The notes under the pieces were generated by a model. It saw nothing but the letters and a program-made list of their open reading frames with translations, did no database searches and was not told the origin of the DNA. From a virus (Duplodnaviria > Caudoviricetes), in IMG/VR virus record IMGVR_UViG_3300024259_001623: DNA of 64,000 nucleotides, one strand, 5' to 3'. Within the stretch, counting starts at the first letter, position 1; each line of letters opens with the position of its first letter. Positions 15,640-46,047 of the stretch are shown in pieces. Position numbers and translations under genes: made by a program.

Positions 15640-16851
15640 TTATTCAAAAATTTCTAAATTTAATTCATTTTTATTATTTCTAACTACTTTTATAACATCC
15701 TTTATTTTTCGTAAAAAGTTTCTTAATTCAAACTTCTTAGAAACCTTTACGCTACATGACTTTATTTCTTGAAAAACTTCTGGTTTCCTTTTTTTTATAT
15801 TTTCTAATTCCAATAAAATATCAGCGAATGATTTATAAGAAGCAACTTCATAGTGTTCTGCCAAAGCTCCTACATAAACATTACTATCAACAAAGAATTG
15901 ATATGCCTCTGGCATCTCCTCAATAATCTCTTTTAATGCTCCAACTTTTGTAGCTACAGGTATACAACCACAAGCCATTCCCTCTAAAACAGACATTCCA
16001 GTAGCCGCTCTAACAGATAAGTCTGCTACTACATCACATCCGTTTAATTTTTCGACCAACGCTTTTTCTTCTATACCTTCATTAATACCAATAAACTCTT
16101 CTGGTAATGCAATAGCATTATGCTTATCATATCTTTCTTTCAAATAATATAAGTCATAATCCCCTTCATCAGATATATTTGTGTGCATATAAGATTCTAT
16201 ATTCTCATTGCGATCTCTTGCAGAAGCTACGCCCATCATATATGTAGCAGAACCAGAAGATTGAGAGTTTTTGCCACAACCAAATATCTTTAATTTATTA
16301 GAATTTTTAATAATATTATCTTTTATATTAAAAACATCATGATCTATTCCTATAGGTACATATTCACATAAGGTATTACAGAACTCGCTGACTTCTTTTG
16401 CCCCTTCCTTTGTGGATGATAAAATATAATCCATATACTGAAAAGAATCTTTTCTAGAATCGTTAATCGGAACTGCATCAATAGTTAATATATTAATCCA
16501 TTTGAATAATGTAGGATGTAGAGATTTTATAGCAAATATAAAATCTGTCTCATGATAATCTCCTATAGAGATAACGACATCTGGCTGTGCCTTTTTCATT
16601 ATCTCATAAACTTGTGGAGAAGACATGTCTACTCTATTAATAAACGGATATATACGACATATCTTTTTATCATTTTTTTCAAAAAAGAATTGACCATCTT
16701 CACTGGCAGAATACCAACTAATATCATGATGCCAAACAGCAGAACTAACTTCTACATCTGGCATCTCTGATAAACATTCTAATACATAAGAGTTGATTTT
16801 TCCTAACTTTGTAGACAAATAGGGTGAGGCACTTACCGTTAAAATTTTCAT
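15640..16851 (-). CDS. GT-B (family 4-like) glycosyltransferase with a degenerate E-x7-E motif
   Basis: EYVPIGIDHDVF; CDVVADLSVRAATGMSVLEGMACGCIPVATKVGALKEII, with the first Glu replaced by Ala. Confidence 0.75.
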   Translation of the reverse strand: MKILTVSASPYLSTKLGKINSYVLECLSEMPDVEVSSAVWHHDISWYSASEDGQFFFEKNDKKICRIYPFINRVDMSSPQVYEIMKKAQPDVVISIGDYHETDFIFAIKSLHPTLFKWINILTIDAVPINDSRKDSFQYMDYILSSTKEGAKEVSEFCNTLCEYVPIGIDHDVFNIKDNIIKNSNKLKIFGCGKNSQSSGSATYMMGVASARDRNENIESYMHTNISDEGDYDLYYLKERYDKHNAIALPEEFIGINEGIEEKALVEKLNGCDVVADLSVRAATGMSVLEGMACGCIPVATKVGALKEIIEEMPEAYQFFVDSNVYVGALAEHYEVASYKSFADILLELENIKKRKPEVFQEIKSCSVKVSKKFELRNFLRKIKDVIKVVRNNKNELNLEIFE

Positions 16852-18791: not shown

Positions 18792-19883
18792 TTAATCTCC
18801 TAAAATACTGGATAAATCATCGTCAGACGATTTATTTATTTTCTTTTGAGTTATCATAGCTTGAGTTAAACATCCTTTTACAACCGAATTCCTAGGATCA
18901 GCAGAGTGTTTTACATCTTTCACCTTAAACGGCAATTTCAAGCCTCTTATTACTTCTTCTATTTTATTGCAAAATCCTTTAGGCATACTTGTGCCACCAG
19001 CAACAACTATATCCAATGGAGAATCAAATTCGCTCTCAACATTAGCAAATTTAACTGCGAAATTCTTTAAAACGTATTCTATCATCGCTCCATAATAAAC
19101 ATCAAGAGCATATAAAATATCATCATCTTCATCCAAATTATTAAAATCTAATCTTTTCTCTTTGGCAGAAGTGACCTTAGATACAGAGATACCCAACTGC
19201 TCAGAAACCTTATTATCTATCCAATCACCACTTCTCGACGTAGACATGCCTAAAATCTTCAACCCCTTATAAGCCAAAACACAATTAACCCTACCAGCAC
19301 CGAAACTAATTCCAATACCACTATAAGGAGATTCAGTTCCATCCTCTTCGACAACAACAGGTCTTTCAGACAATATGACAGCCAAACCTTCTTCTATAAC
19401 CTTAACATTCCAACCATTCTTCTTAAACATACCCATCAATCTTGCCTTATGGAAGGCGCTATCAGCAGAACCATCAGTAGGAGGAGAAGACACACAAGTA
19501 CATACAACGGATTTGTCATTAGGAGCCTTGCCCAAAGATGTATTAATCAATTCAGATAATACTAACATCTTTTTCTCTTCATTCTTATTTAATACTCCGC
19601 TTTCCATAGGACGCCTTAACTCGACTTTACCTGGGAACAATTTTGCAACTCTCAAAGAGTCTTCACCTATAACAAAATAATCACCATCGTCCCTAACGAA
19701 TTTCCATTTATTTTGAGATAATACATCTTCAATATCATCTGTGGCTTCGATCTGCACAAATGCATTTCTGATGTTTTTTAATTCAATTTTATTATCTGCG
19801 TTTTTTTCTGCTGTTTGGAAAAACATAGTTCCGACATCGGCTCCGCACACTCTAGATTGTTTTTTATTTGCATCTTTTTCCAT
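18792..19883 (-). CDS. Actin-like ATPase (MreB/ParM superfamily)
   Basis: Phosphate-1 GADVGT, connect-1 IEEGLA, phosphate-2 GISFGAG, adenosine IVVAGGTS, connect-2 DPRNSVVKG; probable start MEKD after AGGAG. Confidence 0.85.
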   Translation of the reverse strand: MEKDANKKQSRVCGADVGTMFFQTAEKNADNKIELKNIRNAFVQIEATDDIEDVLSQNKWKFVRDDGDYFVIGEDSLRVAKLFPGKVELRRPMESGVLNKNEEKKMLVLSELINTSLGKAPNDKSVVCTCVSSPPTDGSADSAFHKARLMGMFKKNGWNVKVIEEGLAVILSERPVVVEEDGTESPYSGIGISFGAGRVNCVLAYKGLKILGMSTSRSGDWIDNKVSEQLGISVSKVTSAKEKRLDFNNLDEDDDILYALDVYYGAMIEYVLKNFAVKFANVESEFDSPLDIVVAGGTSMPKGFCNKIEEVIRGLKLPFKVKDVKHSADPRNSVVKGCLTQAMITQKKINKSSDDDLSSILGD

Positions 19884-19922
19884 TACATTTTCTCCTATTT
19901 TTTGCATATATTTCTATATTAA

Positions 19923-26048: not shown

Positions 26049-27794
26049 TTAATTTCCATTATTTTCGTACCTTTCCTCTATTTTTGCTACAATAGGATCT
26101 CTTACTATACTTTTTTTAGTTAATTGATGAATACCTACTCCATCAATGCCCACAAAACGACTAATAGCGTCTTTAAGACCGTTTGATTCCTTTATATCGG
26201 ATTGTCCTAAATCTCCAGTAACTATACATTTAGATCCTTGTCCGATTCTAGTCAAAAACATTCTCATTTGGCCCTTCAAAGAATTTTGAAATTCATCTCC
26301 AATAACTATAGCCTTATTAAATGTAACTCCTCTTTGAAAAGCTAATGGTAATGTAATAATCTCTTTATCTTTAAGCATTCTTTGTAATTCTATTTCTGGA
26401 ATCCTATCGCATAAAAAGCTTATTAGGGGAAGCATATATGGAGCTAATTTTTCTTCCATATCGCCAGGCAAGAATCCTAATTTCTCTCCATATGCTTCAA
26501 CAGCAGGACGAGTCAAAATCATTTTGTCGAATTTACCATGTAAAAGCTCATTTAATCCCCACATTGTAGCCAAAAAAGTATTATGCGTAACAATGCAATT
26601 ATTAGTCAAATATAAATGATCTTCACTATCCAAATAAATACATTGAGCTAAAGTTTTTCTACTTTTTTCTATTTTTGATATAACTCTCTTTACCTTATAT
26701 TTCGTTCTTTTCTTAGTTTTATCTTTTTTCCTTTGCAGATTAAACAACTCACTAGGATCATTATATCTAATAAAGCATCTGTAAGCCTTTCGACCTTTCT
26801 TTTTTTCTCCATTATATGTATATGATGTGCACCTTTCTTTTATTACGCAAATCCCTCCCAATGATCCAATAACTTCTTTAACGTCAAAAGCCAATTGATG
26901 AGAAGTAGTCGTAAAGCCAATCTGACCCCCCTTTTCCACGTAGCCATCCGAATCAAATAACCCCCTTAAAATACCAACCCTGACATTTCTGAGATTGTAT
27001 TTGTAATTATCTGGAATAAATTTCTCATAAGAAAGTTTTTTATATAAGCCACACTTTTCCAACTTATCGGTATAATAATTCCTATCGTTACGTTTCTTTT
27101 TCCTACAGATAGAATAACCAAACTTATGCTTTAATCTGTGAATTTCATAATCTTCCTTGATAACCATATATTGCAAAACTTCGCTATCATCTGTATAAAT
27201 TTGAGGACTTGCAAGTTTTAACATCCCATCGCCGATTAAAAATCCTAATAAATATGGATCTATATCCACTTCCTGTTCATTAAAATAAACCTCTTCTGGA
27301 ACACTTATTGACAACTTGTTATAACCGGAATGCGTTTTATAATTATTCAGAATCCACTCTAAGTCTCGAACCTTTTCAGATTTCCACCACTTACAATCTA
27401 TTTTCCATAAATGTTCCTTACAACATTCAACACTATCCCCATCAGAAAATGTAATCTTATAAATTTGTTTTTCGCCTTGAGGATAAACTTCTAAAACTTT
27501 TGCCGAAGAACCATCTGGAGTACAAATATCATTTCCAACCTTTATTTCTCCCATTTTTTTTGGTCCGTTTGGAGTATAAACCAAAGAATCTAATGGCTGT
27601 GCCTTACCTGTTCCGGGAGGACCATAAACAAAATCGATTTTGTTTTCATTAAAAGATTTTAAAATGACTTTTTGTTCATCTGTCTTAGCTGTTGGACTAC
27701 AATTAAATACTTTTTTCTTTTGAGAAGTGGTGGCTACTGGCATTCTTGTTGACACTTTCCTTGCTGTAGCCTTCTTAATTTTTCTTGTTGACAA
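26049..27794 (-). CDS. phoH: PhoH-family ATPase interrupted by an intein
   Basis: GPPGTGK|T P-loop, KMILTRPAVE, LGFLPGD, LAFQRGVTF, IGDEFQN, RIGQGSKCIVTGDLGQSD. Confidence 0.9.
   Translation of the reverse strand: MSTRKIKKATARKVSTRMPVATTSQKKKVFNCSPTAKTDEQKVILKSFNENKIDFVYGPPGTGKAQPLDSLVYTPNGPKKMGEIKVGNDICTPDGSSAKVLEVYPQGEKQIYKITFSDGDSVECCKEHLWKIDCKWWKSEKVRDLEWILNNYKTHSGYNKLSISVPEEVYFNEQEVDIDPYLLGFLIGDGMLKLASPQIYTDDSEVLQYMVIKEDYEIHRLKHKFGYSICRKKKRNDRNYYTDKLEKCGLYKKLSYEKFIPDNYKYNLRNVRVGILRGLFDSDGYVEKGGQIGFTTTSHQLAFDVKEVIGSLGGICVIKERCTSYTYNGEKKKGRKAYRCFIRYNDPSELFNLQRKKDKTKKRTKYKVKRVISKIEKSRKTLAQCIYLDSEDHLYLTNNCIVTHNTFLATMWGLNELLHGKFDKMILTRPAVEAYGEKLGFLPGDMEEKLAPYMLPLISFLCDRIPEIELQRMLKDKEIITLPLAFQRGVTFNKAIVIGDEFQNSLKGQMRMFLTRIGQGSKCIVTGDLGQSDIKESNGLKDAISRFVGIDGVGIHQLTKKSIVRDPIVAKIEERYENNGN
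26580..27602 (-). mobile_element. Class 3-type intein (341 aa) with a LAGLIDADG endonuclease
   Basis: Starts AQPLDS after P-loop Lys, ends IVTHN with Thr+1; W in block B (EHLW), C in block F (AQCIYL), T in block G; PYLLGFLIGDG and GILRGLFDSDG. Confidence 0.85.
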
Positions 27795-31478: not shown

Positions 31479-32029
31479 TTTTGAGTACCCCAAAATTTCA
31501 TCTCCTGAGCATAGCTAGGTTCTGTGTATTTGGGGTATCTATTCCCGTAGATATTTTGTCTCCAATCCGGAGATGTTTTATAACGCTTAGAATAATTAAC
31601 GTATGGAATATTGGAAGCGACATTATCTTCAAGGTCAACATCATCTAATTTGTCACTTAAAATAGGCCAAAATATAGATGTAGGAGTCTCATTATCTATA
31701 AAATCACTCATAGTCTCAACAGCGATTTTCTTTATTTTATTATATACCTTCTTGGCCTTAGCAAAATCAGATTTATCGTATGTCCAATATCTATTCCACC
31801 CCAAAGACCCCAAAAATGCATGATTAATAACTACAGCAACAGCAATTTTCTCTTTTGTTTCAGATATGGATATTCTTATTGTATAAGCATCCATGACATA
31901 TCTCTGCAAATCAAACATGGTCATCCACTCTCCATCCTGATTTGTAGCAGCGGCGTCATCTTCACAATCGAATCTGCCAGATGCGGTCTTTACTACTCTC
32001 TTTTTAATATTATCTTTATACCAATTCAT
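31475..32029 (-). CDS. MNWYK-tagged hypothetical protein
   Basis: Starts MNWYKDNIKKRVVKTAS. Confidence 0.7.
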   Translation of the reverse strand: MNWYKDNIKKRVVKTASGRFDCEDDAAATNQDGEWMTMFDLQRYVMDAYTIRISISETKEKIAVAVVINHAFLGSLGWNRYWTYDKSDFAKAKKVYNKIKKIAVETMSDFIDNETPTSIFWPILSDKLDDVDLEDNVASNIPYVNYSKRYKTSPDWRQNIYGNRYPKYTEPSYAQEMKFWGTQK

Positions 32030-32784
32030 GTTTTTATCTTGAAAAAGTTTCTAATTTTTGACCTTATCTTTATAATTTCTATTTTTTGACGAATCTCCTT
32101 TATAGGAATACAACAAATAAAAGAAGTATTATACGGATAAGAATACATGAATCTTGATATAACCCCAATAACCTCATTTTTAGAGTTTAATAATGCACCA
32201 CCAGACATCCCCTTATGACCACCACCATTTGTCCAAACCTCATTTTTACCTATATAACATATAGCCCCTCTAACAACAAATTTTCTAGACTTCCCAATCA
32301 CATCAGCAGGAAAACCTATAGACCAAGAAATGTCTCCCAGTGTGGCTTCACCCATATTGTGAATAAAATATCTTTTATTAGATTTAAATTTTAATAATGC
32401 TATATCAGCAACGTCAGACTTATATACAATCTCTGATTCATTATTATCTACAAAAATCTTTTGACCAAACATAACGACATGTTTAGCCGTAGCAGCATAA
32501 TACCAACCATCAATAAATGATACAACAACACAAGACCCACCGATCTCTACCGTACTCTCCACTTCTATATCAGACAATGGATCTTTTATAATATCAGTTT
32601 TGAAGAAACTTTTAAAAGTTGTCTTAATTGTTTTTGTAGTCTTTACCTGTAAAATCCCCTTTGACTCTATTTTTGTATTATTTCTTTCTACAAAAATAGA
32701 AGAAGTTTTAAAAGTTAAATTGATATGACAACCTGACAAAAAACTTAACATAACAAGTAGGAGCAAAAAATATTTCACTGACAA
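32026..32784 (-). CDS. Trypsin-like serine protease, predicted lipoprotein
   Basis: Lipobox LSGC after a hydrophobic leader; triad motifs ATAKHV, ADIALL, GMSGG. Confidence 0.8.
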   Translation of the reverse strand: MSVKYFLLLLVMLSFLSGCHINLTFKTSSIFVERNNTKIESKGILQVKTTKTIKTTFKSFFKTDIIKDPLSDIEVESTVEIGGSCVVVSFIDGWYYAATAKHVVMFGQKIFVDNNESEIVYKSDVADIALLKFKSNKRYFIHNMGEATLGDISWSIGFPADVIGKSRKFVVRGAICYIGKNEVWTNGGGHKGMSGGALLNSKNEVIGVISRFMYSYPYNTSFICCIPIKEIRQKIEIIKIRSKIRNFFKIKT

Positions 32785-32801
32785 TCTCCTAAAAAATATA
32801 T

Positions 32802-33821
32802 TTATTGAGCAATCTCTTCTCTGATCTCTGCCAATGTAACGGGGAAGACTCCAAACTTCTCTACCTCTAATCCTCCAGCTATATTAGACAATTTGACACA
32901 TGTTTCTAAATCCGCCCCTACCTTTTTAGCACAACATAACATAGCCAAAACCATATCGCCAGCGCCACTGACATCATATATCTTTCTCTGTTTAACAGGG
33001 AAAATTTTCCCTATAGATGAACCCTGCTTTAAAAAAGCACCATCCTTATCTAAAGTAATTAAAACGTTTTTTATACCATAACCACTATTGATAAAACCTG
33101 CGACTCCATCAACATTGGACAAATTATGATCATCAAGACGTTTTGTTGTTATAGCATTACTGGCTCCCCACATTATACAAGCTTCTTCTCTATTAGGAGT
33201 TACCAAAAACGCTCCCCTATAACGATAATATTTACTACTAAAAGCAAACCTAGCAGGATCGACTATGGCTGATGACCCATTAGAATCACACTTCTTCATA
33301 ATATCGCTGCAAAGTTTATCCACCACAACACCCTTGTTATAATCTTCTATAGCAACAACTGATCCATTAACTATATCTTTCTCCAACAATCCGTAAATTT
33401 TATCAATAACATCAGCAGAAATATCTTCTGTGCTTTCTTTGTCTATTCTTAACATCTGCTGTTGATGTCTGTGTTGAGCTAAACCAATACATCTCTGTTT
33501 TACTGTTGTAGGTCTACTTGGATCAATAACCATTCCCGATACATCTGCACCAGCCCCTCTCAATAAAGATAATAAAGAATAGCCATTACGGTCATCTCCT
33601 ACAACACCAAAACATTTTACACTCATACCTAATGCCAATATATTCATAGCAACAGATGCAGACCCACCACATCTATCCTCTTCCTTCTCTACCTTTAAAA
33701 CAGGAACAGGAGCTTCCGGACTTATCCTCTCACAATTGCCATAAATATACTTGTCCAACATGAAGTCACCGACAAGTATAATTTCTTTATCTCTTCTAAA
33801 TTTATTTAAAACCTTTTCCAT
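32802..33821 (-). CDS. rfaE1: D-glycero-D-manno-heptose-7-phosphate kinase (HldE/RfaE kinase domain only)
   Basis: VGDFMLDKYIYGNCERISPEAPVPVL; TPNREEA; DVSGAGD PfkB motif. Confidence 0.9.
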   Translation of the reverse strand: MEKVLNKFRRDKEIILVGDFMLDKYIYGNCERISPEAPVPVLKVEKEEDRCGGSASVAMNILALGMSVKCFGVVGDDRNGYSLLSLLRGAGADVSGMVIDPSRPTTVKQRCIGLAQHRHQQQMLRIDKESTEDISADVIDKIYGLLEKDIVNGSVVAIEDYNKGVVVDKLCSDIMKKCDSNGSSAIVDPARFAFSSKYYRYRGAFLVTPNREEACIMWGASNAITTKRLDDHNLSNVDGVAGFINSGYGIKNVLITLDKDGAFLKQGSSIGKIFPVKQRKIYDVSGAGDMVLAMLCCAKKVGADLETCVKLSNIAGGLEVEKFGVFPVTLAEIREEIAQ

Positions 33822-38019: not shown

Positions 38020-40113
38020 TCAACTTATCACAAAAATAGGCTCAAATTTATTTCCGCCACCAAATTTAGGATATTTAATTCTGTCCTCACCTAAAAGCAT
38101 ATTTTTCGATTCTAAATATTCTTTTAAATCATCTGCAATAGGATAAGCCCCTGTATTTGCTACATTAATAGCAACTTTCTTGCTTACTCTACTAGACTCA
38201 ACCACACACGGAATTAAGTAATTATCAAACCACTCTCCATATGAACCATATTTCTGTGAACTCTGCTTACTATCAGTATCATATAATTCTGCATCAAAAT
38301 AAGGTGGAGATGTAAAACAAAAATCAAAAGTATTATCTACAAACATCTTCATACCCAAGAGGCTGTCCTGGTTGTTTATATTAATACTTGTCTTAATATT
38401 TTTATATACATATAATGAATGACGTAAATTATGTAAACCAGAAAAAGAATCTAAATTTATTTCGATACCATGATACGATTTTACTTTTTCAGAAGCAGAC
38501 GCTCCAAATAATCTACCACCATAACCAGCACAAAAATCTAATACATTACTTCCCTCATCACAATATTTATCGTATATAGATTTAGCTATACAGGGCATAA
38601 ACCCGCTAACACATTTATTTCCACGATATCTTCTTAATTTTCTTAATAAAACTCTGCCAATAGGAATCCTGTCATTTAAAATAACTTCTCTAACGATTTC
38701 TTTTAAATATATTTCATTATTAAAAATTTCTCTAGGAGAATAAGAACCTTTCGCTTTAGCCGTCCAAAAATTAGGAAAATGATACATAAGAAAAATATTA
38801 CCCAAAGAAGAAAAATCGATACAATCTTCCTTAATTGTTTTTCCCGTGTCAAATTCAAATACTTTTCTCATATCCGTTAAATGATTTTTAGGATCATCTA
38901 ACAGCGATCTAAAACCTTGATGATGAAGTGAAAAAACAATATTATCCACCCATTCATCTTGCTTATCTTTATTCATAGACATAAAATTATCAGAGAGAGG
39001 ACATTCTTTTATATCATGAATAGAAAGATTTTTCTTTTGTTTCCAGCTTGTATGGTCATTTTTATTTATTTTGTAATAAAACATAGGCAAAACATAAGAA
39101 GATACTAAATCAACAAATTTTTCTGAATGATATGTTCTTATTTTTACCCTATAATACAAATTACCATTAGATTTTCTGTCTGCAAGAAAAGCATCTATTC
39201 CATATCTTTCTTTAAACCACTGGACTATTAACTCGCAACTTTCTTTAGAAAATGAATCTGTACAAAAAGAAAATTGCGGTTTATGCTCTCTAATATCTGT
39301 AGAACCGTCGTCTTGATACCAAACAGCTAATCCTAATGGAGTTATATTATCAAGTATTTTTCTAGTTGGCTCTCTTTTATCATCTTTATAAAATTCAGAA
39401 AGTATATTTTCTACATCAGTATTAGCATGGGTATAAAAACTACAAGTAGTATTAAAGCCATTATGTCTAGGGTCAAAACTCAAAGATTCTTTTAGAGATT
39501 TTTCCGAAACAACACTTTTAAATTCATTAAATTTCCACAAAAGATATTTTTTCTGTTTGGAACTATGAGAAAAACCTACGGACGCAGTATTATAACTTTT
39601 ATTAACATATTGTCTTTTTGCATCTCCCATTAGAGATCCATATAATATCTCTTTTTGTCTTTGAGTCAAAGGAACTTCAGTATTTTTTCTATTTTGGTAC
39701 TTAAATCCTGTAGCCTTAAAATTATAAAGTTGTCTTAAAAATGTTATATCACTTTTGGATATATTATACCTATCAGCTATATCATTTAATGGTAACCCAG
39801 ATCTATAATCATTATAAAATGTATCTTTGTCTAAAATAATTTTCCCTTGCAAAAAATTACTAAAAAACTGCACTAAATGCTTAGATACTCCACTTCTGGA
39901 TATGTCTTTAAAACTCTTGCCAGAGTCTACCAACTCTCTTAATTCTCTAAAAGTAATAAAATTAAGTTTTCTGTTTCTAGAACTCTTTTGTAATTGAACA
40001 TCTAAATATGGTTCAACTAAATCCCAATCTAATTTGCTTTTCATCTTATTAAGTTTAGCAAGCTTCATTTGCTCTATAGCTTCTTTACTTAAATTTTGTC
40101 CTTTCTTAGGCAT
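38020..40113 (-). CDS. LAGLIDADG-type endonuclease fused to an amino-DNA methyltransferase
   Basis: QKEILYGSLMGDA and LAVWYQDDG; C-terminal VLDFCAGYGGR (motif I) and FTSPPYF (motif IV). Confidence 0.8.
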   Translation of the reverse strand: MPKKGQNLSKEAIEQMKLAKLNKMKSKLDWDLVEPYLDVQLQKSSRNRKLNFITFRELRELVDSGKSFKDISRSGVSKHLVQFFSNFLQGKIILDKDTFYNDYRSGLPLNDIADRYNISKSDITFLRQLYNFKATGFKYQNRKNTEVPLTQRQKEILYGSLMGDAKRQYVNKSYNTASVGFSHSSKQKKYLLWKFNEFKSVVSEKSLKESLSFDPRHNGFNTTCSFYTHANTDVENILSEFYKDDKREPTRKILDNITPLGLAVWYQDDGSTDIREHKPQFSFCTDSFSKESCELIVQWFKERYGIDAFLADRKSNGNLYYRVKIRTYHSEKFVDLVSSYVLPMFYYKINKNDHTSWKQKKNLSIHDIKECPLSDNFMSMNKDKQDEWVDNIVFSLHHQGFRSLLDDPKNHLTDMRKVFEFDTGKTIKEDCIDFSSLGNIFLMYHFPNFWTAKAKGSYSPREIFNNEIYLKEIVREVILNDRIPIGRVLLRKLRRYRGNKCVSGFMPCIAKSIYDKYCDEGSNVLDFCAGYGGRLFGASASEKVKSYHGIEINLDSFSGLHNLRHSLYVYKNIKTSININNQDSLLGMKMFVDNTFDFCFTSPPYFDAELYDTDSKQSSQKYGSYGEWFDNYLIPCVVESSRVSKKVAINVANTGAYPIADDLKEYLESKNMLLGEDRIKYPKFGGGNKFEPIFVIS

Positions 40114-40224: not shown

Positions 40225-41529
40225 TTACGTCCCACTTGAAAATAAATAACGAAACCAACGAGACCTTCCACCTGGAAGCGTAAATTCTGGAACTACGATT
40301 GCTCTTGTTAATCCAACGTAAGGACCATACTTTTTCTGTTCATATATATCTTTAACTTCTTCTTCATAGTTCTTTTTCAGTGTTTCCATATTATCGAAGG
40401 CTTTATTTGCTCCTTCTGGACCGCCAAAGACTTGTTGTGGTTCTTGGAATTGCAGGCAGAGCATTAATCTTCTCAGAGCATCGACTGCTGCTTGTTTAAT
40501 AACCACAGGAATGTATCTATCAGGAACTGAATTAACAGTATATCCACTATGAGGAGGATAACTATTCAGTGTTCTGATAGCATTTATAATAAATTCATAT
40601 AGTTCATCATCTGAGAACCATCTGAAATTATAATCTACGTTAACGACATCAAAATCTGTTAATGGAGAACTAAAGACTACTTCGCCTTTGAAATAATCTA
40701 CATTGACGCCGGATGTAACGATTTTATCTTGATTTCTATAGACTTTAATACCTGCTGTTTGGTTCCATCTTGGGAATGTAAATCTATAGGTTTTATGGTC
40801 AACAGTTTGTTTTGATTGCTCGAAATATACGGGAACTGATTGTGCGCATAAAATATATTTTTCCAGAGCTATAATCAATTCTCTTGCTCTTCCTGTATAT
40901 ACTTCATTTTCATCGCCTGTAGTCGGATCTTTTTCTGACACAACAAGATCTTGAATTTCTGATCTTACGACTCCATCTACAGTATATTCCCAAATAGCCT
41001 GATAGTCACCAGTAGTCCTAGTTTCCTCTATATCCCAATCAAATATATAAAACCCTATATCGGCCTTCACAGGAACTCCGAGCGTCACAAGGGTTCCTGC
41101 GTTGTTATTAATAGTTGTTGTAATAGATGTAGCATCTTGAGGATTGCCATCAAAATCTGTAATCTTTAGTAATAGTACAGCGGTTGTATTTTGCTTGAAG
41201 GAACCTTTAAAGTCTGTTGATGCTGTAACTGTGCCTGCATTGGGTACAAATGGTCCTACTTTATCTACTTTATAGACTGGAGTATCTTCAGCTTCGGGGA
41301 TAACTTCCCATGATACCAGATATGTTAGTGTATCATCTGCATCGAAGGTATATTCATAAACTCCTGTAGCTGGGTTACTTGTAGCTGTTCCATCTGCAAC
41401 AACGACGGTATCGGAGTCTAGTTCTTTAATTCCGTAATCTGCCTCATCTGATGATAATTTGACAGAATTTGCATTAACAGACAGTCCATTTTTCTTATAT
41501 AGAAAAGACACAGTGCGATCAGGCATCAC
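40225..41529 (-). CDS. Neck/head-tail connector-like protein with N-terminal Ig-like domains
   Basis: Beta-rich N-terminus (GVYEYTF; GDYQAIWEYTVDG); helical C-terminus (ELYEFIINAIRTLN...VIKQAAVDALRRL). Confidence 0.5.
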   Translation of the reverse strand: MMPDRTVSFLYKKNGLSVNANSVKLSSDEADYGIKELDSDTVVVADGTATSNPATGVYEYTFDADDTLTYLVSWEVIPEAEDTPVYKVDKVGPFVPNAGTVTASTDFKGSFKQNTTAVLLLKITDFDGNPQDATSITTTINNNAGTLVTLGVPVKADIGFYIFDWDIEETRTTGDYQAIWEYTVDGVVRSEIQDLVVSEKDPTTGDENEVYTGRARELIIALEKYILCAQSVPVYFEQSKQTVDHKTYRFTFPRWNQTAGIKVYRNQDKIVTSGVNVDYFKGEVVFSSPLTDFDVVNVDYNFRWFSDDELYEFIINAIRTLNSYPPHSGYTVNSVPDRYIPVVIKQAAVDALRRLMLCLQFQEPQQVFGGPEGANKAFDNMETLKKNYEEEVKDIYEQKKYGPYVGLTRAIVVPEFTLPGGRSRWFRYLFSSGT

Positions 41530-41585
41530 ATTCTCCCATTATAATTTAATATACTTTATATTTGGGAAATATTATTAAAATCCCT

Positions 41586-42383
41586 TTAAGAAAAGAAAAC
41601 ATTAATTTCCTTAATAATAGCCTCTCTGGTGGGCCTTTTTCTTTTCTTTTTTATATTATTAATCATAATTGCTACGACGCTGGTTGCGATTCCTAATGAG
41701 GCTTGTCTGCCTGTCATTTTAGCGTATTGTCCTTCTCCGTATGTAGTATAGAACTTAAAGCTTCTTGGCGGTTTTATATTAATAATATTATTTTCCGCGC
41801 TAATATTCCATTTTTTATTTGTTCCGGTTTTATAATTAACGCCTATAACATTATTATACCCGAACGGGTATATATTTACATTTTTGTCATCGAATGGAGT
41901 TAATATAATTGTTTGTTGTTTAACTGCCTTATTGATAGCATCTTTTAGTGAGTGGTCATCTATATTAGTTGCTAGTGGAAGTACAACGACATTAGACTTT
42001 TTGATAATAGCCCATAACAGTCCTGCTACGATACTGGGAGTATTAGTTTTCCCATTCTTATTAAAAATCTTCGCTGCTGTCAATTCAGCATTTGTTGATA
42101 ATCCTGTAATACCTTTTGGATTATCTGATGTTATAAAGCCTGATAGTGTTGTAGCGTTTCCATGTTCATCTAGGATATTTTTATCGGCGCTAAAATTTTC
42201 CATATCTTTAATATTCATCACATCGCAATGAGAAGGGACGCCTGTGCTTAGAAGACATATTTTAACCTTTCCGCCTTTATTTTGGAACTCAAAATCTTTC
42301 ATAATTTTGAAATAATTTTGACTGTCCGGCAGTTTGTTTTCTATGCTATTTGGGCCTACTCGTTTTATAAAAAAATCACTCAT
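41586..42383 (-). CDS. Subtilisin-like (S8) protein, predicted catalytically dead
   Basis: ICLLSTGV (D to S), DEHGNATTLSG (H to N), YAKMTGRQAS (S to Q). Confidence 0.75.
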   Translation of the reverse strand: MSDFFIKRVGPNSIENKLPDSQNYFKIMKDFEFQNKGGKVKICLLSTGVPSHCDVMNIKDMENFSADKNILDEHGNATTLSGFITSDNPKGITGLSTNAELTAAKIFNKNGKTNTPSIVAGLLWAIIKKSNVVVLPLATNIDDHSLKDAINKAVKQQTIILTPFDDKNVNIYPFGYNNVIGVNYKTGTNKKWNISAENNIINIKPPRSFKFYTTYGEGQYAKMTGRQASLGIATSVVAIMINNIKKKRKRPTREAIIKEINVFFS

Positions 42384-42395
42384 AAATACCTTTCT

Positions 42396-43121
42396 TTATT
42401 GTAAAAAATGTTTAGGAACGTCAAATACTTTACCAGAGCCAAACAACTCTATTTTAAAGTTATAATTTATAGTCTTTAAGAAATACACTTCTTTTCTCAA
42501 AAACAGTGCTATATTAAGAGTAAGAAAATCATCTGTTATAATTCTTTTGCATCTATTTATTTCATCCATTTTTTTATGGATATGTTGTTTTTGTGGGATA
42601 TACCACAACCTAGATTCTTTTAATTTAAGTTCTGTATACAAATATTCTTTTAAATTATAATTAGATAACAGGATACCAGTCCTATTTTTAACTGATTTAT
42701 TTCTAGGTTTATAATTTACATCTGCCCCTTCCCCCCTCCAGGACATACCTGCCAACTGATTATATATCTGAAACATATTCTTATTAGTTTTTTTATTACC
42801 ATAAAGAATATTCTTGTATTTATCTTTTGGATCTGTATAATTTATACCTACACATTTATCTACATTTAATAGGGAATCATTTATTGATGGGGATAAATTT
42901 ATTAATAAATCATAATGATTTAACAATAGATTTTCTTCATCTTGTCGATGTTTTAAAGTAAATACTTTCTTAACATATTTAGAATATTCAAAAACATCTG
43001 CTGTTGAGTCAAATACAGTAGCAACGTACACATCCCCCTGCTTTGACAACTTCTTCAAAAGACAAGTTGCTACAAAGCATTCGCTCATATGTCCTAAACT
43101 GGCTAAAAGAATATTCATCAT
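42396..43121 (-). CDS. Family 9 (heptosyltransferase-like) GT-B protein, degenerate
   Basis: ILLASLGHMSECFVATCLLKKL; YDLLINL; INRCKRIITDDFLTLNIALFLRKEVY. Confidence 0.55.
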   Translation of the reverse strand: MMNILLASLGHMSECFVATCLLKKLSKQGDVYVATVFDSTADVFEYSKYVKKVFTLKHRQDEENLLLNHYDLLINLSPSINDSLLNVDKCVGINYTDPKDKYKNILYGNKKTNKNMFQIYNQLAGMSWRGEGADVNYKPRNKSVKNRTGILLSNYNLKEYLYTELKLKESRLWYIPQKQHIHKKMDEINRCKRIITDDFLTLNIALFLRKEVYFLKTINYNFKIELFGSGKVFDVPKHFLQ

Positions 43122-43132
43122 ATTACCTTATA

Positions 43133-43801
43133 CTAAAAATCGTTCGGGAGCAGTCCTCTCTCGTTGCTAGAACTACTATCCAATCTTCTGGTTCCGGAAC
43201 CTTTTAATTCATTTGTCATATCAATAACAATAGCATCGTCTGCTGCTATATCTCCGTCAGCATAGGCTGCTGCGGAGCCTGGTTCTGAACCAGAGACTAA
43301 CATGCTGTTCATTGCAGCGTCTTCTCTCTCTCTATTTTCAGAATCCAATATAGATTGTTCTTCATGCACTTCGTTTAACGTTAATATTTCTATTTTCCCT
43401 GAGTCCAACAACTGATTAAATATTCTATTATTTTTCATATTTTTTTCGCCATGAGTTTTAATCAAATCAGATAAAGATTTAAAATCATTTAAGCCTTTTA
43501 ATTCTAAATCTAAATCACTCAAAACAATATTGCTTCTTGAAGAAGATCTGACAAACAATGCTTCTTCGCTATCCCAGATATCATCTTTATTGATGATATT
43601 TTTCTTTTTACCATACGATTCTTCAACAAGATTTACAATATCATCTATATCGGTTTTTATAGCATCAGTTATATATAAAACCTCGTTGCCTATAGCTTTA
43701 AACTTATTGAGTTTTTGTATATTTCTGAATGGAATAGAAGTTTCTCCGGTTCTGCTATATACTTTTACTGTTTTACTTTTTATATCCAAAAAAACTATCA
43801 T
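43133..43801 (-). CDS. Hypothetical protein carrying the shared ~55-aa module internally
   Basis: VRSSSRSNIVLSDLDL...FNQLLDSGKIEIL at aa ~82-141. Confidence 0.6.
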   Translation of the reverse strand: MIVFLDIKSKTVKVYSRTGETSIPFRNIQKLNKFKAIGNEVLYITDAIKTDIDDIVNLVEESYGKKKNIINKDDIWDSEEALFVRSSSRSNIVLSDLDLELKGLNDFKSLSDLIKTHGEKNMKNNRIFNQLLDSGKIEILTLNEVHEEQSILDSENREREDAAMNSMLVSGSEPGSAAAYADGDIAADDAIVIDMTNELKGSGTRRLDSSSSNERGLLPNDF

Positions 43802-45192
43802 AATTTACTCCATATAGAATCCAATCTATCTTTAGCCATCTGTGCTACAGTTGGTATATTGTATTTTGTTTTTACTAATTTCTGCAATTTTTTATTTTTC
43901 TTTTGTGCTTCAGAATAATTTTCATATACATATCTCATTTGTTTTCTGGCATCTCGTATAACTTTCTTCGACTGTAGTTCTGGGAACATTTGACCATCCC
44001 AATAATGAACATGCATAGACCCTGGCTGCATTTCAGAAATATTATCTACATCAACCAGATATGAATTACTTTTCTTTAAGAACATGGTCTGTGCGCTGCA
44101 ATTAGAACCTATTACTGGCAGACCGCATAAAGACGACTCACAATATGGAAGACCAAATCCTTCTCCGCGCGAAAATAGAACAAAAGCATCTGCTGCTCTA
44201 TAAATATTAGGCATTCTGTTTTCTGGTATTATACTACTACATCTTGCAATATGAGCAGCTTCGGATTTACCATTGTTATCTATATATCTTTTAATAACAT
44301 CTTTAATAACATCTTTTCCGTGAGCATTACAATTGAATCTACTGACAATCAACAATGAAACAGGATCATCTGACGAAAATTCTTCTAAATACGATTTCAA
44401 TAACACATCATAACCTTTTCTATAACTCCATCCAAATACGCTTATGAAAACAAAGTCTTTTAAGCTAGGATTAAATTCATATGGATCGCTATTTTCATTA
44501 TACAAATTAGTATCTATAGAATCTGGTATAACATAGATAGGTCTACTTACATTATGTTTCTCTAAAATTTCTTTACAGAAATCAGATGTAACCCATATTT
44601 CATTATAACTATTAGATATATCAACAAATTGTTGAGGTATAGAATAGGCTTCGACCGTGGTATATAAAATTCTATATCTAGATGCAGACATACTACTAAA
44701 TGTAGGTATCATACTATCTATAGAAATCGCCTTTCTGCTTACTGTTTTATTGATATGAGACAATCTTTTTATTTCTGCTTCATTTAGGTTATTCGAGTAT
44801 TTATTTGATGCATCTATATTGACTCTCACTCCTAATTTATGTAGACCTTCCGCTATATTTCTATTTACTTTGGCATATCCGCCAGCTTCATAGAAATGGC
44901 CTCTTATTTTTACTTCTAGATCTTTACAGCTTTCCATTTCGATTTTCTCATCCTCTTCTTGTTTTATTATTTTTTCTTTTGATTCTTTTTGTGATTTTAA
45001 TAAGCTTCTTTCTAAAGCAGTTTTACCGCACTTTGTTATTTCAATTTGACCCATACTAACCAATAATCTAAAAGAATTAGATTTCTTGACATTATCCAAC
45101 GAGATATGTTGTACCTCATCTCCTAAGAACGGGATATTCTTATCTATATCGCTTAAAAATATAGTGTTATTTGATCTATTTACAAAGTCCAT
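43798..45192 (-). CDS. GT4 glycosyltransferase with the shared N-terminal module
   Basis: VFGWSYRKGYDVLLKSY; ADAFVLFSRGEGFGLPYCESSLCGLPVI with intact E-x7-E. Confidence 0.9.
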   Translation of the reverse strand: MDFVNRSNNTIFLSDIDKNIPFLGDEVQHISLDNVKKSNSFRLLVSMGQIEITKCGKTALERSLLKSQKESKEKIIKQEEDEKIEMESCKDLEVKIRGHFYEAGGYAKVNRNIAEGLHKLGVRVNIDASNKYSNNLNEAEIKRLSHINKTVSRKAISIDSMIPTFSSMSASRYRILYTTVEAYSIPQQFVDISNSYNEIWVTSDFCKEILEKHNVSRPIYVIPDSIDTNLYNENSDPYEFNPSLKDFVFISVFGWSYRKGYDVLLKSYLEEFSSDDPVSLLIVSRFNCNAHGKDVIKDVIKRYIDNNGKSEAAHIARCSSIIPENRMPNIYRAADAFVLFSRGEGFGLPYCESSLCGLPVIGSNCSAQTMFLKKSNSYLVDVDNISEMQPGSMHVHYWDGQMFPELQSKKVIRDARKQMRYVYENYSEAQKKNKKLQKLVKTKYNIPTVAQMAKDRLDSIWSKL

Positions 45193-45199
45193 ATTTTTT

Positions 45200-45207
45200 A
45201 TATCGTC
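45200..45207 (-). promoter_or_regulatory. Candidate promoter core GACGATAT
   Basis: Between a terminator and the GT4 operon. Confidence 0.35.
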
Positions 45208-45223
45208 AATATCTAATCTTAAT

Positions 45224-45246
45224 AAAAAACCTGGCAGTAGCCAGGC
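45224..45246 (-). terminator. Intrinsic terminator after the PEP-CTERM gene
   Basis: CCTGGC-TACT-GCCAGG followed by TTTTTT. Confidence 0.7.
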
Positions 45247-45283: not shown

Positions 45284-45991
45284 TTATCTTTTTCTTTTTG
45301 CTAATATAGCTGTAGATCCTATCAAAAAAAACAACGCTGTAGTCGGTTCTGGAGTATAAGTATAAGCATCAACGCCAGGTTCTCTCCACCATGACAATAA
45401 TATACTCAAATCTGCATCATCAACAATTCCTACAAAATCATCATTAATAGGATCTTCATGAGTTCCCAACCATACATTTCCTTTTTGATATGTCCGATAT
45501 TCACCCCAATTAGATAACAAAATGCTTAAATCATCATCTTCTACAAATCCATCATGATTCAAATCACCTGGATAAACATCAACCCAAATAAAAACCCATG
45601 AATTATACGATTGACCATCTTCACCAACAAGATTGATCCAATGCTGATCTGCTCCCCAAGAGTCAATCTCTGGTGTAAAAGTATAATAATCCGGCCCCAC
45701 ATCTTGATAAAAATGTACATCTATATCGCCTTTGATAATTCTAGTAGCTCCTATCATAGAGATATTCTTCATACCAATGTCATTTTCTAATGGATAGATA
45801 TTAATACTATTTCCTAATAATACATAATAATCATCTATAGCCCCATCTGCTGGCAATGGATAAAATGGATATACAGTCGCAGGATTAGGATTAAATTCAA
45901 ATTCGTATGCAAAAGAAGGTTGAGTAAAAAATAAAATACAAAATATAATAATAACTAAAATATGCTTCAAATATCTACTTGCAAGTCCCAT
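45284..45991 (-). CDS. Secreted PEP-CTERM protein with cadherin/Ig-like and dockerin-like domains
   Basis: Signal peptide (...FFTQPSFA); DDYYVLLGNSINIYPLEND; PGDLNHDGFVEDDDLSILLSNWG and VDDADLSILLSWW; C-terminal TPEPTTALFFLIGSTAILAKRKR; GGAGG RBS. Confidence 0.8.
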   Translation of the reverse strand: MGLASRYLKHILVIIIFCILFFTQPSFAYEFEFNPNPATVYPFYPLPADGAIDDYYVLLGNSINIYPLENDIGMKNISMIGATRIIKGDIDVHFYQDVGPDYYTFTPEIDSWGADQHWINLVGEDGQSYNSWVFIWVDVYPGDLNHDGFVEDDDLSILLSNWGEYRTYQKGNVWLGTHEDPINDDFVGIVDDADLSILLSWWREPGVDAYTYTPEPTTALFFLIGSTAILAKRKR

Positions 45992-46047
45992 AGTACTTGT
46001 CCTCCATGATCCCCCAATAAGTTTCTTCAATCCATTCTTACTTTAGC

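What the first reader, a model, noticed from the sequence alone, without database searches (positions are those of the whole stretch)
41586..45192. Operon pairing one active GT4 with degenerate enzymes
Seen: promoter-like motif, then intact GT4, module protein, degenerate GT9-like, dead S8, followed by the neck-like gene. With the impaired GT4 at 15640 this gives three apparent pseudo-enzymes in morphogenesis context. Inference: a virion-surface glycosylation or shielding complex with one catalytic subunit and exapted enzyme folds as scaffold or glycan readers.
Basis: inference. Interest (0 to 1): 0.7.

Follow-up and report, generated by a model that had tools for sequence, protein, structure and literature searches.

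The report
Conserved sugar-adding gene cassette, huge phages
A 434-kb uncultivated marine phage and at least 24 distant relatives carry the same tight gene cassette (a sugar transferase, a small adaptor-like protein, a miniature heptosyltransferase-like protein and a subtilisin-like protein), and in this phage's branch the subtilisin has lost its whole catalytic site yet is still kept.

Summary

In 24 related loci of huge phages (contigs up to 548 kb), the last three genes occur in the same order in 24/24. The GT4 lies directly upstream in 17/24. No other neighbour is found in more than 9 loci.

- **Transcription signal:** a terminator hairpin plus a conserved CGATA box precedes the cassette throughout the lineage.
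- **GT4:** it looks active. Its EX7E motif is invariant, and one relative has an intein inside that motif.
- **S8 protein:** it is truly dead here (D32S, H64N, N155D, S221Q). The family consensus is an active subtilase, and 16 relatives keep the triad. The loss maps to one branch, followed by faster evolution with the reading frame kept.
- **GT9-like protein:** it is a conserved, miniature GT9-fold family (Z 17.7 to WaaC). "Degenerate" is not shown.
- **Second GT4 (15640):** it is a strongly conserved family, so it is not demonstrably impaired.
- **Relatives' flanks:** giant multi-glycosyltransferase/methyltransferase proteins and collagen-like or beta-helix proteins sit beside the cassette.

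Best reading: a glycosylation cassette, probably acting on phage proteins. "One catalytic subunit plus scaffolds" is only partly supported.

The parts
45221..45245 (-). Intrinsic terminator-like hairpin (CCTGGC-TACT-GCCAGG) with T-run. It ends the upstream PEP-CTERM gene and insulates the cassette.
   Evidence: Sequence read; the hairpin is listed. A hairpin plus T-run stands at the same place in most relatives.
45193..45205 (-). CGATA box followed by 8 nt and the GT4 start codon, with no Shine-Dalgarno sequence. Candidate lineage-specific promoter; the GT4 mRNA may be leaderless.
   Evidence: CGATA-N7-8-ATG stands before GT4 in the window and 12 of 17 relatives, with CGATA further upstream in 2 more. 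CGATA plus a 25-35 nt leader with GGAG stands before the 222-aa gene in 6 of 7 GT4-less loci; the seventh has CGACA.
43798..45192 (-). GT4 glycosyltransferase, 464 aa (P0001): a conserved N-terminal domain of about 95 aa followed by a GT-B catalytic body with an EX7E motif.
   Evidence: Pfam and PHROG hits. EX7E at residues 344-352 is invariant in 17 orthologues. An intein sits inside EX7E in L019.
43133..43801 (-). 222-aa 'module' protein (P0002): two small alpha/beta domains, a long helix and a disordered acidic tail ending NERGLLPNDF. No known family or fold.
   Evidence: Present in 24/24 loci. AF2 pLDDT 77.7, with the middle domain at 94-96. No convincing PDB match, best Z 4.3. The middle domain resembles the GT4 N-terminal domain (hhalign E 8e-5, probability 61%; the sub-threshold hmmsearch hits are enriched in these proteins).
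42396..43121 (-). Miniature GT9-fold protein, 241 aa (P0003). It belongs to a phage-restricted family of about 240-aa proteins.
   Evidence: 98 representative clusters. The family profile hits GT9 structure 3tov at E 2e-7. The model has pLDDT 96.2. Z 17.7, 228 residues aligned, rmsd 3.2 to WaaC. Invariant residues are listed.
41586..42383 (-). S8 subtilase homologue without its catalytic triad or oxyanion Asn, 265 aa (P0004). No propeptide and no signal peptide.
   Evidence: The identical protein was read on 14 contigs from several samples.
40225..41529 (-). Conserved 434-aa protein (P0005) downstream, with its own GGGAG ribosome-binding site after a 56-59 nt gap. It is a neighbour, not a member of the cassette.
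   Evidence: It lies beside the cassette in only 8 of 24 loci, twice inverted. Weak Atlas lead to head-completion proteins.
15640..16851 (-). Second GT4 (P0105, 403 aa), 27 kb away. It has Ala at the first Glu of EX7E.

Best explanation
This is a self-contained, co-transcribed glycosylation cassette of a clade of marine huge phages.

**Shown**
- The order 222-aa protein, mini-GT9, S8 is invariant in all 24 relatives. A GT4 with intact catalytic motifs leads the cassette in 17 of them.
- A terminator plus a conserved CGATA box precedes the cassette.
- The genes are translationally coupled.

**Inferred**
- The GT4 (retaining type) and the mini-GT9 protein (inverting type) add sugars to an acceptor. 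The acceptor is most likely a phage-made protein such as a fibre, a decoration protein or another virion-surface protein. In relatives the cassette is extended by giant multi-GT/methyltransferase enzymes and sits next to collagen-like, beta-helix and Fn3-associated proteins.
- The 222-aa protein is an adaptor. It shares a small domain with the GT4 N-terminus, so both may dock on the same partner. It also carries a clade-specific acidic C-terminal peptide.
- The S8 protein was ancestrally an intracellular-type processing protease of this pathway.

In the branch that contains this phage the S8 protein lost Asp, His, Ser and the oxyanion Asn in one event. It then evolved faster but kept its frame and length in 8 diverged phages, so it now serves a non-proteolytic role, such as binding or assembly. 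That role is unknown.
For: - **Synteny:**. The trio is in 24/24 loci, GT4 in 17/24, and no other family is in more than 9 loci.
- **GT4-less genomes:** two 100% complete genomes (461 and 548 kb) lack the orthologous GT4 but keep the trio.
- **Operon signals:**
- **GT4 integrity:**. An intein sits inside EX7E in L019; inteins typically sit in functional sites (general knowledge).
- **GT9 fold:**. Glu14 aligns with the GT9 catalytic Asp, and the TDD motif aligns with the ND(S/T)G motif.
- **S8 family:** the consensus IIDSG/GHST/GN/GSS is that of an active subtilase, and the profile scores E 1e-47 to subtilisin DY. The triad is lost only in the window, L008-L011, L013, L028 and L031.
- **One loss event:** the loss needs a single change on the GT9-like tree, and 0 of 500 shuffles are as low.
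- **Faster evolution after the loss:** at equal GT9-like divergence, S8 identity is 38% among triad-intact pairs and 25% among triad-less pairs.
- **Glycan context in relatives:** L028 has a 1627-aa protein and L017 a 1905-aa protein with GT2, GT17 and methyltransferase domains. L015 has GT4+GT2, L022 a collagen-repeat protein and L025 a beta-helix protein. Fn3_assoc/CHB_HEX_C and beta-helix proteins lie upstream in GT4-less loci.
- **Shared domain:**
- **Precedents:** glycans on capsid and tail-tube subunits of mycobacteriophages (Freeman 2023, as cited in PMC12619734); PBCV-1 A064R and mimivirus L230 (PMC9614988).
Against: - No acceptor has been identified, and no sugar-nucleotide synthesis genes are recognisable nearby.
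- The flanking genes vary, so the target cannot be read from context in this phage. Here the flanks are a PEP-CTERM/dockerin-like protein upstream and a conserved structural-looking protein downstream.
- The acidic residue at the GT9 catalytic position is Gln/Ile/Leu in 7-8 of 25 members, and the canonical GT9 donor-binding loop is not recognisable. The mini-GT9 protein may therefore be non-catalytic or use different chemistry.
- The domain similarity between GT4 and the 222-aa protein is weak (hhalign probability 61%).
- Everything about the dead S8 protein's present role is inference.
Confidence: 0.5

Rival explanations
1. Host-envelope remodelling. The GT4 and the GT9-like protein modify a host glycolipid or polysaccharide (LPS core, capsule or exopolysaccharide) during infection, for example to block superinfection or to keep progeny from sticking to debris. 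The S8 protein and the 222-aa protein are accessory.
For: - GT9 plus GT4 is the enzyme pairing of LPS inner-core assembly (WaaC/WaaF with WaaG; general knowledge).
- The best structural matches are WaaC and WaaF.
- The upstream gene encodes a PEP-CTERM/dockerin-like envelope-type protein.
- A 2026 preprint counts huge-phage glycosyltransferases among cell-envelope-associated genes (10.64898/2026.10.24.761521).
Against: - None of the four proteins has a signal peptide or membrane segment.
- The cassette sits among morphogenesis genes.
- In relatives it is joined to GT17/methyltransferase giants and collagen-like proteins. These resemble viral protein-glycan machinery more than LPS genes.
- The PEP-CTERM gene is separated from the cassette by a terminator and is absent from all relatives.
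- The mini-GT9 family was not found in 185,579 prokaryote genomes, although only one search pattern was used.
Confidence: 0.18
2. The proteins form a stable virion-associated complex in which GT4 is the only catalyst. The mini-GT9 and the dead S8 proteins are exapted scaffolds or glycan/peptide readers, comparable to GtfA with its non-catalytic GT-B partner GtfB.
For: - The S8 protein is certainly non-catalytic here yet retained.
- The GT9 fold is used as a structural subunit elsewhere: chloroplast NDH chains score Z 16.4.
- In GtfA/GtfB one partner is the transferase and the other a chaperone that binds the acceptor. They interact through a shared domain (PMC6973325). The domain shared by GT4 and the 222-aa protein offers a parallel.
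- The canonical base is variable in the mini-GT9 family.
Against: - 16 of 24 relatives keep an intact S8 triad, so the conserved function of the cassette includes a live protease.
- Two complete genomes keep the trio without the orthologous GT4. If GT4 were the only catalyst, that trio would have none.
- The mini-GT9 family keeps invariant polar residues (D197, K210, E225, N189) and mostly keeps an acid at the catalytic position.
Confidence: 0.15
3. DNA hypermodification. The transferases glycosylate modified bases of phage DNA to evade restriction.
For: - Phage GT-B enzymes glycosylate hydroxymethylated pyrimidines, and diverse viral glycosyltransferases hypermodify DNA (Pyle et al. 2024, held as bioRxiv 10.1101/2023.12.21.572611, and PMC13326640).
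- A methyltransferase-like protein (38020-40113) and a nucleoside deoxyribosyltransferase-like gene lie within 8 kb.
Against: - No TET/5mYOX, hydroxymethylase or cytosine-methyltransferase gene is linked to the cassette in any of the 24 loci.
- A subtilase and an adaptor-like protein have no place in that pathway.
- The neighbours are structural or glycan genes.
Confidence: 0.07
4. Co-located but functionally unrelated genes. The dead S8 gene is simply a decaying remnant.
For: The dead S8 proteins evolve faster than the intact ones, and no interaction or shared substrate has been shown.
Against: - Invariant order and tight or overlapping spacing in 24/24 loci, while every flanking gene changes.
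- Full-length open frames in 8 phages whose dead S8 proteins share only about 25% identity. Unconstrained sequence would not stay open at that divergence.
Confidence: 0.1

Closest known systems
Virion glycosylation operons of mycobacteriophages (Freeman et al. 2023, cited in PMC12619734)
   Same: Phage-encoded glycosyltransferase genes placed among structural genes. The likely target is the phage's own proteins.
   Different: Those systems have no GT9-fold protein, no subtilase and no adaptor gene, and their glycans were demonstrated by experiment. Here nothing is demonstrated, and the cassette is a fixed three- or four-gene unit in huge marine phages.
GtfA/GtfB priming glycosyltransferase pair of the accessory Sec system (PMC6973325)
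   Same: A GT4 catalytic subunit is encoded beside a partner thought to hold the acceptor, and the partners are linked through a shared extra domain. P0001 weakly matches the GtfA model (E 1e-4).
   Different: No serine-rich substrate or secretion genes are present. The possible non-catalytic partners here have a GT9 fold or an S8 fold, not a GT4-like fold. The score is far below the family cut-off (21 against 575 bits), so P0001 is not a member.
GT9 heptosyltransferases WaaC/WaaF and the protein heptosyltransferase TibC
   Same: The same two-domain fold: Z 17.7, 16.0 and 12.5. The N-terminal motif and the C-terminal TDD/NDSG motif align.
   Different: The protein has 241 residues, against 320-390. 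It fails the Pfam GT9 model. The donor-binding loop is not recognisable, and the catalytic Asp is Glu here and variable in the family. The family is restricted to phages.
Multi-domain glycan-building enzymes of giant viruses (PBCV-1 A064R; mimivirus L230 with collagen-like proteins; PMC9614988)
   Same: Relatives of this phage place 1627- and 1905-aa proteins with several glycosyltransferase and methyltransferase domains, and a collagen-repeat protein, directly after the cassette.
   Different: Those are eukaryotic viruses. This window itself lacks the giant enzymes, and no homology to A064R or L230 was tested.
Subtilisins of family S8A, especially intracellular subtilisin proteases
   Same: Clear sequence homology over the whole catalytic domain (profile E 1e-47). 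No secretion signal and no classical propeptide.
   Different: The window protein lacks Asp32, His64, Asn155 and Ser221. The Ser125-Leu-Gly substrate-binding strand is also altered.
GT9-like structural subunit of the chloroplast NDH complex (PDB 7wff chain a, 9grx chain 1)
   Same: The fold matches almost as well as the true enzymes do (Z 16.3-16.4). This shows that the fold can serve as a non-enzymatic subunit.
   Different: Plant protein; fold-level resemblance only. I take its non-enzymatic status from general knowledge and did not test it here.

Membership tests
Glycosyltransferase family 4 (Pfam Glycos_transf_1 / Glyco_trans_1_4) - P0001 | C-terminal GT-B domain scores above the curated cut-off | tested here: met
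   48.1 bits against 27, and 39.5 bits against 26.4; phrog_2170 E 5e-27
Glycosyltransferase family 4 - P0001 | EX7E motif | tested here: met
   EGFGLPYCE at residues 344-352; both Glu invariant in 17 orthologues
Glycosyltransferase family 4 - P0001 | N-terminal GT-B half (Glyco_transf_4) | tested here: inconclusive
   18.3 bits, below the cut-off of 28.5; no structure was predicted
Glycosyltransferase family 9 (Pfam Glyco_transf_9) - P0003 | Matches the family model above threshold | tested here: not met
   P0003 has no Pfam hit. One of 53 family members matches, at E 6.2e-6. The family profile reaches GT9 structure 3tov at E 2e-7.
Glycosyltransferase family 9 - P0003 | GT-B fold closest to GT9 enzymes | tested here: met
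   Z 17.7 (WaaC), 17.2 (3tov) and 16.0 (WaaF), with 227-229 of 241 residues aligned at rmsd 3.2-3.6. The next GT-B families score Z 9.8 or less. Foldseek's top 9 hits are all GT9.
Glycosyltransferase family 9 - P0003 | Catalytic Asp after the N-terminal Gly (Asp13 of WaaC/WaaF) | tested here: inconclusive
   Glu14 aligns with it. Across 25 orthologues the position is D/E in 17 and Q/I/L in 7-8.
Glycosyltransferase family 9 - P0003 | ADP-heptose donor binding and transferase activity | not testable with these tools
   The TDD motif (196-198) aligns with ND(S/T)G, but the phosphate-binding loop is not recognisable. An enzyme assay is needed.
Peptidase family S8 (subtilases) - P0004 | Homology to the subtilase catalytic domain | tested here: met
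   Pfam 26.5 bits against 21.8; E 6e-15 to subtilisin DY; family profile E 1e-47
Peptidase family S8 - P0004 | Asp-His-Ser catalytic triad and oxyanion Asn | tested here: not met
   S46, N76, Q227 and D166 stand in their places. The triad is present in 16 of 24 orthologues. P0004 is therefore a homologue of S8 but not an active member.
Phage virion-glycosylation system | Glycosyltransferase genes embedded among structural genes | tested here: met
   Tail tube at 14070, tape measure at 8061, capsid gene at 58507 and tail-like proteins in the window
Phage virion-glycosylation system | Glycan present on virion proteins | not testable with these tools
   Needs virions of a cultured relative and glycoproteomics
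GtfA/GtfB-type two-protein glycosyltransferase | Membership of the GtfA equivalog | tested here: not met
   TIGR02918 21.2 bits against a cut-off of 574.6

The most novel reading that the evidence does not exclude
In huge marine phages a subtilase belonging to a glycosylation cassette was converted, in one lineage, from a processing protease into a catalytically dead binding subunit. It now holds the acidic C-terminal peptide of the neighbouring adaptor protein: the NEGxLLPDDF-type tail is found only in the dead-S8 clade. This would make a phage-built protein-glycosylation machine of GT4, mini-GT9, adaptor and pseudo-protease. The machine would be transcribed as a leaderless mRNA from a lineage-specific CGATA promoter and would decorate the virion surface.
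Probability: 0.15. Interest if true: 0.75.

Novelty: new variant of a known kind. Interest (0 to 1): 0.55.

Why it matters
Phage-encoded glycosylation of phage particles has been shown only for a few actinobacteriophages. Huge phages carry many glycosyltransferases whose targets are unknown. This cassette has several features that make it a tractable entry point:

- It is a defined, portable and strongly co-conserved unit with an unannotated miniature GT9 family and an unannotated adaptor.
- It offers a natural experiment: sister lineages carry a live or a dead subtilase in the same cassette.
- That contrast allows a direct test of what a pseudo-protease is kept for, and of what huge phages glycosylate.
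- The conserved CGATA box with a start codon 7-8 nt downstream is a candidate promoter for this lineage.

Tried and rejected
- **Close relatives by DNA or single protein:** blastn of the block against 50,697 phage records found nothing. tblastn of the mini-GT9 protein against the same records found nothing. Single-protein scans of IMG/VR found nothing. Relatives appeared only with an alignment query.
- **Word-indexed search with the S8 protein:** it returned only itself.
- **Complex prediction** (mini-GT9 + 222-aa protein + S8 as partner, with alignments): score 0.00, verdict 'no answer'. I count this neither for nor against binding.
- **Fold of the 222-aa protein:** no convincing match. Foldseek best E 0.17; VIA-align wide best Z 4.3; the Atlas gave nothing usable. 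No Pfam, PHROG, NCBIfam or PADLOC family.
- **Fused (Rosetta-stone) forms of the 222-aa protein:** none among longer proteins, which is weak evidence.
- **ADP-heptose pathway near the cassette:** not recognisable. The PfkB kinase at 32802 stands alone.
- **Mini-GT9 family in prokaryote genomes:** none found, but only one pattern was scanned.
- **Defence-system models:** no hits. The 'GT4-conflict' Pfam hit is below its cut-off (24.9 against 26 bits).
- **p434 as a neck protein:** no PDB sequence match and only a weak Atlas lead.
- **Sigma-70 promoter scan:** no more sites than chance.
- **ACGATAWTAW motif in the window:** 3 sites against 1.1 expected, not significant alone.
- **AAGGRWTWWTT box after S8:** not enriched.
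- **Whole genome:** none is held for this window.

Full report
**What is there.**

The window is part of an uncultivated marine phage. The S8-like protein is found, letter for letter, on 14 contigs from several samples, the longest 434,625 bp. The window carries tail tube, tape measure, capsid and homing-endonuclease genes. All genes of interest are on the minus strand:

| Gene | Coordinates | Length | Protein |
|---|---|---|---|
| GT4 | 43798-45192 | 464 aa | P0001 |
| 'Module' protein | 43133-43801 | 222 aa | P0002 |
| GT9-like protein | 42396-43121 | 241 aa | P0003 |
| S8-like protein | 41586-42383 | 265 aa | P0004 |
| Downstream protein | 40225-41529 | 434 aa | P0005 |

The first two genes overlap by ATGA. 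The next two gaps are 11 and 12 nt, each with a GGAG or AAGG ribosome-binding site. A 56-59 nt gap precedes P0005.

**The cassette is an evolutionary unit.**

No close DNA or single-protein relatives exist in the phage or IMG/VR collections. An exhaustive HMMER search with P0003 found 98 representative clusters, nearly all of about 240 aa. An alignment query then retrieved 23 IMG/VR loci plus one metagenome contig, on contigs of up to 548 kb.

tblastn and an all-against-all clustering of their ORFs gave these results:

- The 222-aa protein, the GT9-like protein and the S8-like protein occur in that order in 24/24 loci.
- The GT4 lies directly upstream in 17/24.
- No other gene family is present in more than 9 loci.

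Two genomes rated 100% complete (461 and 548 kb) keep the trio. They have only 26-28% identical GT4 paralogues 40-50 kb away. The invariant core is therefore the trio, and GT4 is a frequent leader gene. P0005 is adjacent in only 8 loci, twice inverted, so it is a neighbour and not a member.

**Transcription signals.**

Upstream of GT4 the preceding gene ends, and a hairpin (CCTGGC-TACT-GCCAGG) with a T-run follows. Then comes CGATA, 8 nt and the ATG, with no Shine-Dalgarno sequence.

- The same layout (hairpin, T-run, CGATA, 7-8 nt, ATG) precedes GT4 in 12 of 17 relatives, and CGATA lies further upstream in 2 more. The surrounding bases are not conserved.
- In 6 of the 7 GT4-less loci, hairpin plus CGATA precedes the 222-aa gene, with a 25-35 nt leader that carries GGAG; the seventh has CGACA.

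I read CGATA as the core of a lineage-specific promoter. The GT4 message may be leaderless. This is inference and no transcript data could be obtained. A generic sigma-70 scan found no more sites than chance.

**GT4.**

- Pfam and PHROG place it firmly among GT4-type enzymes.
- The EX7E motif (residues 344-352) is invariant in 17 orthologues.
- In L019 an intein (Hint plus LAGLIDADG) is inserted inside this motif...EGFGMPY|C...HN|CEASLCG. This fits a functionally important site.
- About 95 N-terminal residues form a conserved extra domain.

**The 222-aa protein.**

It matches no family in Pfam, PHROGs, NCBIfam or PADLOC. The AF2 model shows two small alpha/beta domains, a long helix and a disordered acidic tail. 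I found no convincing match in the PDB.

Its middle domain resembles the GT4 N-terminal domain. hhalign gives E 8e-5 at probability 61%. In an hmmsearch with the GT4 domain, the first sub-threshold hits are mostly these proteins.

The extreme C-terminus carries clade-specific acidic motifs. NEGxLLPDDF-like tails occur in the same clade that has the dead S8 protein. That link could simply reflect shared ancestry.

**The GT9-like protein.**

P0003 alone fails the Pfam GT9 model. The family profile, however, reaches GT9 structure 3tov at E 2e-7 and WaaF at 1e-4, and one family member matches Pfam GT9.

The model is very confident (pLDDT 96.2). Its structural matches are:

| Match | Z |
|---|---|
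| WaaC (228 of 241 residues, rmsd 3.2) | 17.7 |
| GT9 entry 3tov | 17.2 |
| WaaF | 16.0 |
| TibC | 12.5 |
| Other GT-B families | 9.8 or less |

It is thus a trimmed GT9-fold protein. Glu14 aligns with the catalytic Asp of GT9 enzymes, and TDD(196-198) aligns with their ND(S/T)G motif. Across 25 orthologues the acidic residue is kept in 17 and is Gln/Ile/Leu in the rest. Fourteen positions are invariant, including D197, K210, E225 and N189. Whether it is catalytic is open, and 'degenerate' is not demonstrated. The chloroplast NDH chains at Z 16.4 show that the fold can also be used structurally.

**The S8-like protein.**

Homology to subtilisins is clear. Against subtilisin DY the window protein has S46 for Asp32, N76 for His64, D166 for Asn155 and Q227 for Ser221. 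It cannot be a serine protease.

The family as a whole tells a different story. Its consensus reads IIDSG, GHST, GN, GSS. Its profile scores E 1e-47 against subtilisin DY. Sixteen relatives keep Asp, His and Ser. The triad is missing only in the window, L008, L009, L010, L011 (partial), L013, L028 and L031.

- On a tree of the neighbouring GT9-like protein this needs a single change. Branch support is moderate (70/73), and 0 of 500 label shuffles are as low.
- At equal GT9-like divergence, triad-intact pairs share 38% identity and triad-less pairs 25%.
- All the triad-less genes remain open and full-length.

The protease was therefore inactivated once, constraint was relaxed, and the gene is still kept. 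That points to a remaining non-catalytic role, which is unknown.

**Context in relatives.**

Directly after the cassette:

- L028 has a 1627-aa protein and L017 a 1905-aa protein, each with several GT2, GT17 and methyltransferase domains.
- L015 has a further GT4 and a GT2.
- L022 has a collagen-repeat protein and L025 a beta-helix protein.

Upstream in GT4-less loci lie small Fn3-associated/CHB_HEX_C proteins and a beta-helix protein. This resembles the glycan machinery of giant viruses, such as PBCV-1 A064R with two transferase domains and a methyltransferase, or mimivirus L230 acting on collagen-like proteins (PMC9614988). It also resembles virion glycosylation in mycobacteriophages (cited in PMC12619734). 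It supports a glycosylation role and favours phage proteins as targets, but it does not prove either.

**The second GT4.**

P0105 (15640-16851) has Ala at the first Glu of EX7E. That position is Ser/Ala in its whole family, the second Glu is invariant, and the family is strongly conserved at 49% mean column identity. It is not demonstrably impaired.

**Verdict.**

The interpretation needs correction:

- This is a conserved glycosylation cassette whose ancestral form includes a working-looking protease.
- Only one of the three alleged pseudo-enzymes is established, and only in this phage's branch.

I put 0.5 on a phage-protein glycosylation cassette with a secondarily dead S8 subunit, 0.18 on host-envelope modification, 0.15 on the scaffold-complex version, 0.07 on DNA glycosylation and 0.1 on unrelated neighbours. 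I found no description of this cassette in the papers searched.

The scan's earlier notes on this genome gave context. These included a separate heptosyltransferase-like gene behind a fibre gene, the PEP-CTERM protein, and a protease-scaffold polyprotein that is the likelier head protease. I did not use them as evidence.

Noticed in passing
window 45193-45245 (minus strand); L008-L031 upstream of GT4 or of the 222-aa gene: Conserved hairpin + T-run + CGATA box. The start codon lies 7-8 nt after CGATA and has no Shine-Dalgarno sequence when GT4 leads. When the 222-aa gene leads, a 25-35 nt leader with GGAG follows. Candidate lineage-specific promoter and leaderless mRNA.
   Followed up: partly
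L019:3647-6268 (+): The orthologous GT4 carries an intein (Hint, LAGLIDADG_3 and intein-splicing domains) inserted inside the EX7E catalytic motif, between ...EGFGMPY and CEASLCG.
   Followed up: partly
L028:8540-13420 and L017:9005-14719: Giant 1627-aa and 1905-aa proteins lie directly after the cassette. They combine several GT2 domains, GT17 domains and two or three methyltransferase domains, one of them of the rhamnosyl O-methyltransferase type.
   Followed up: no
window 45284-46030 (minus strand): The gene just upstream encodes a protein with an N-terminal hydrophobic segment, two dockerin-like repeats and a C-terminal PEP-CTERM-type motif (NCBIfam PEP_CTERM 16.9 bits, cut-off 16). It is absent from all 24 related loci.
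   Followed up: partly
window 26049-27794 (minus strand): PhoH-like ATPase with a LAGLIDADG_3 domain in its middle, probably an intein.
   Followed up: no
window 38020-40113 (minus strand): 697-aa protein with a LAGLIDADG_2 endonuclease domain (residues 154-333) followed by a weak N6-methyltransferase-like region. Several relatives have only a protein of about 340-370 aa that matches its first half.
   Followed up: no
window 18792-19907 (minus strand): Actin-fold protein that matches Pfam Volactin at E 9e-57, lying among morphogenesis genes.
   Followed up: no
window 15640-16851 (minus strand): The second GT4 belongs to a strongly conserved huge-phage family. In this family the first Glu of EX7E is Ser/Ala throughout and the second Glu is invariant.
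   Followed up: yes
window 41530-41585 and the first 15 nt after the S8 stop in many related loci: A recurring AAGGAyTwTTT-like box lies just after the S8 stop codon and before the variable downstream gene. It may be a second promoter type. A loose pattern was not enriched in the window.
   Followed up: partly
window 32026-33821 (minus strand): A trypsin-like peptidase (Trypsin_2) and a PfkB-family sugar kinase lie side by side, 8-9 kb from the cassette. No other sugar-nucleotide pathway genes were recognised.
   Followed up: no
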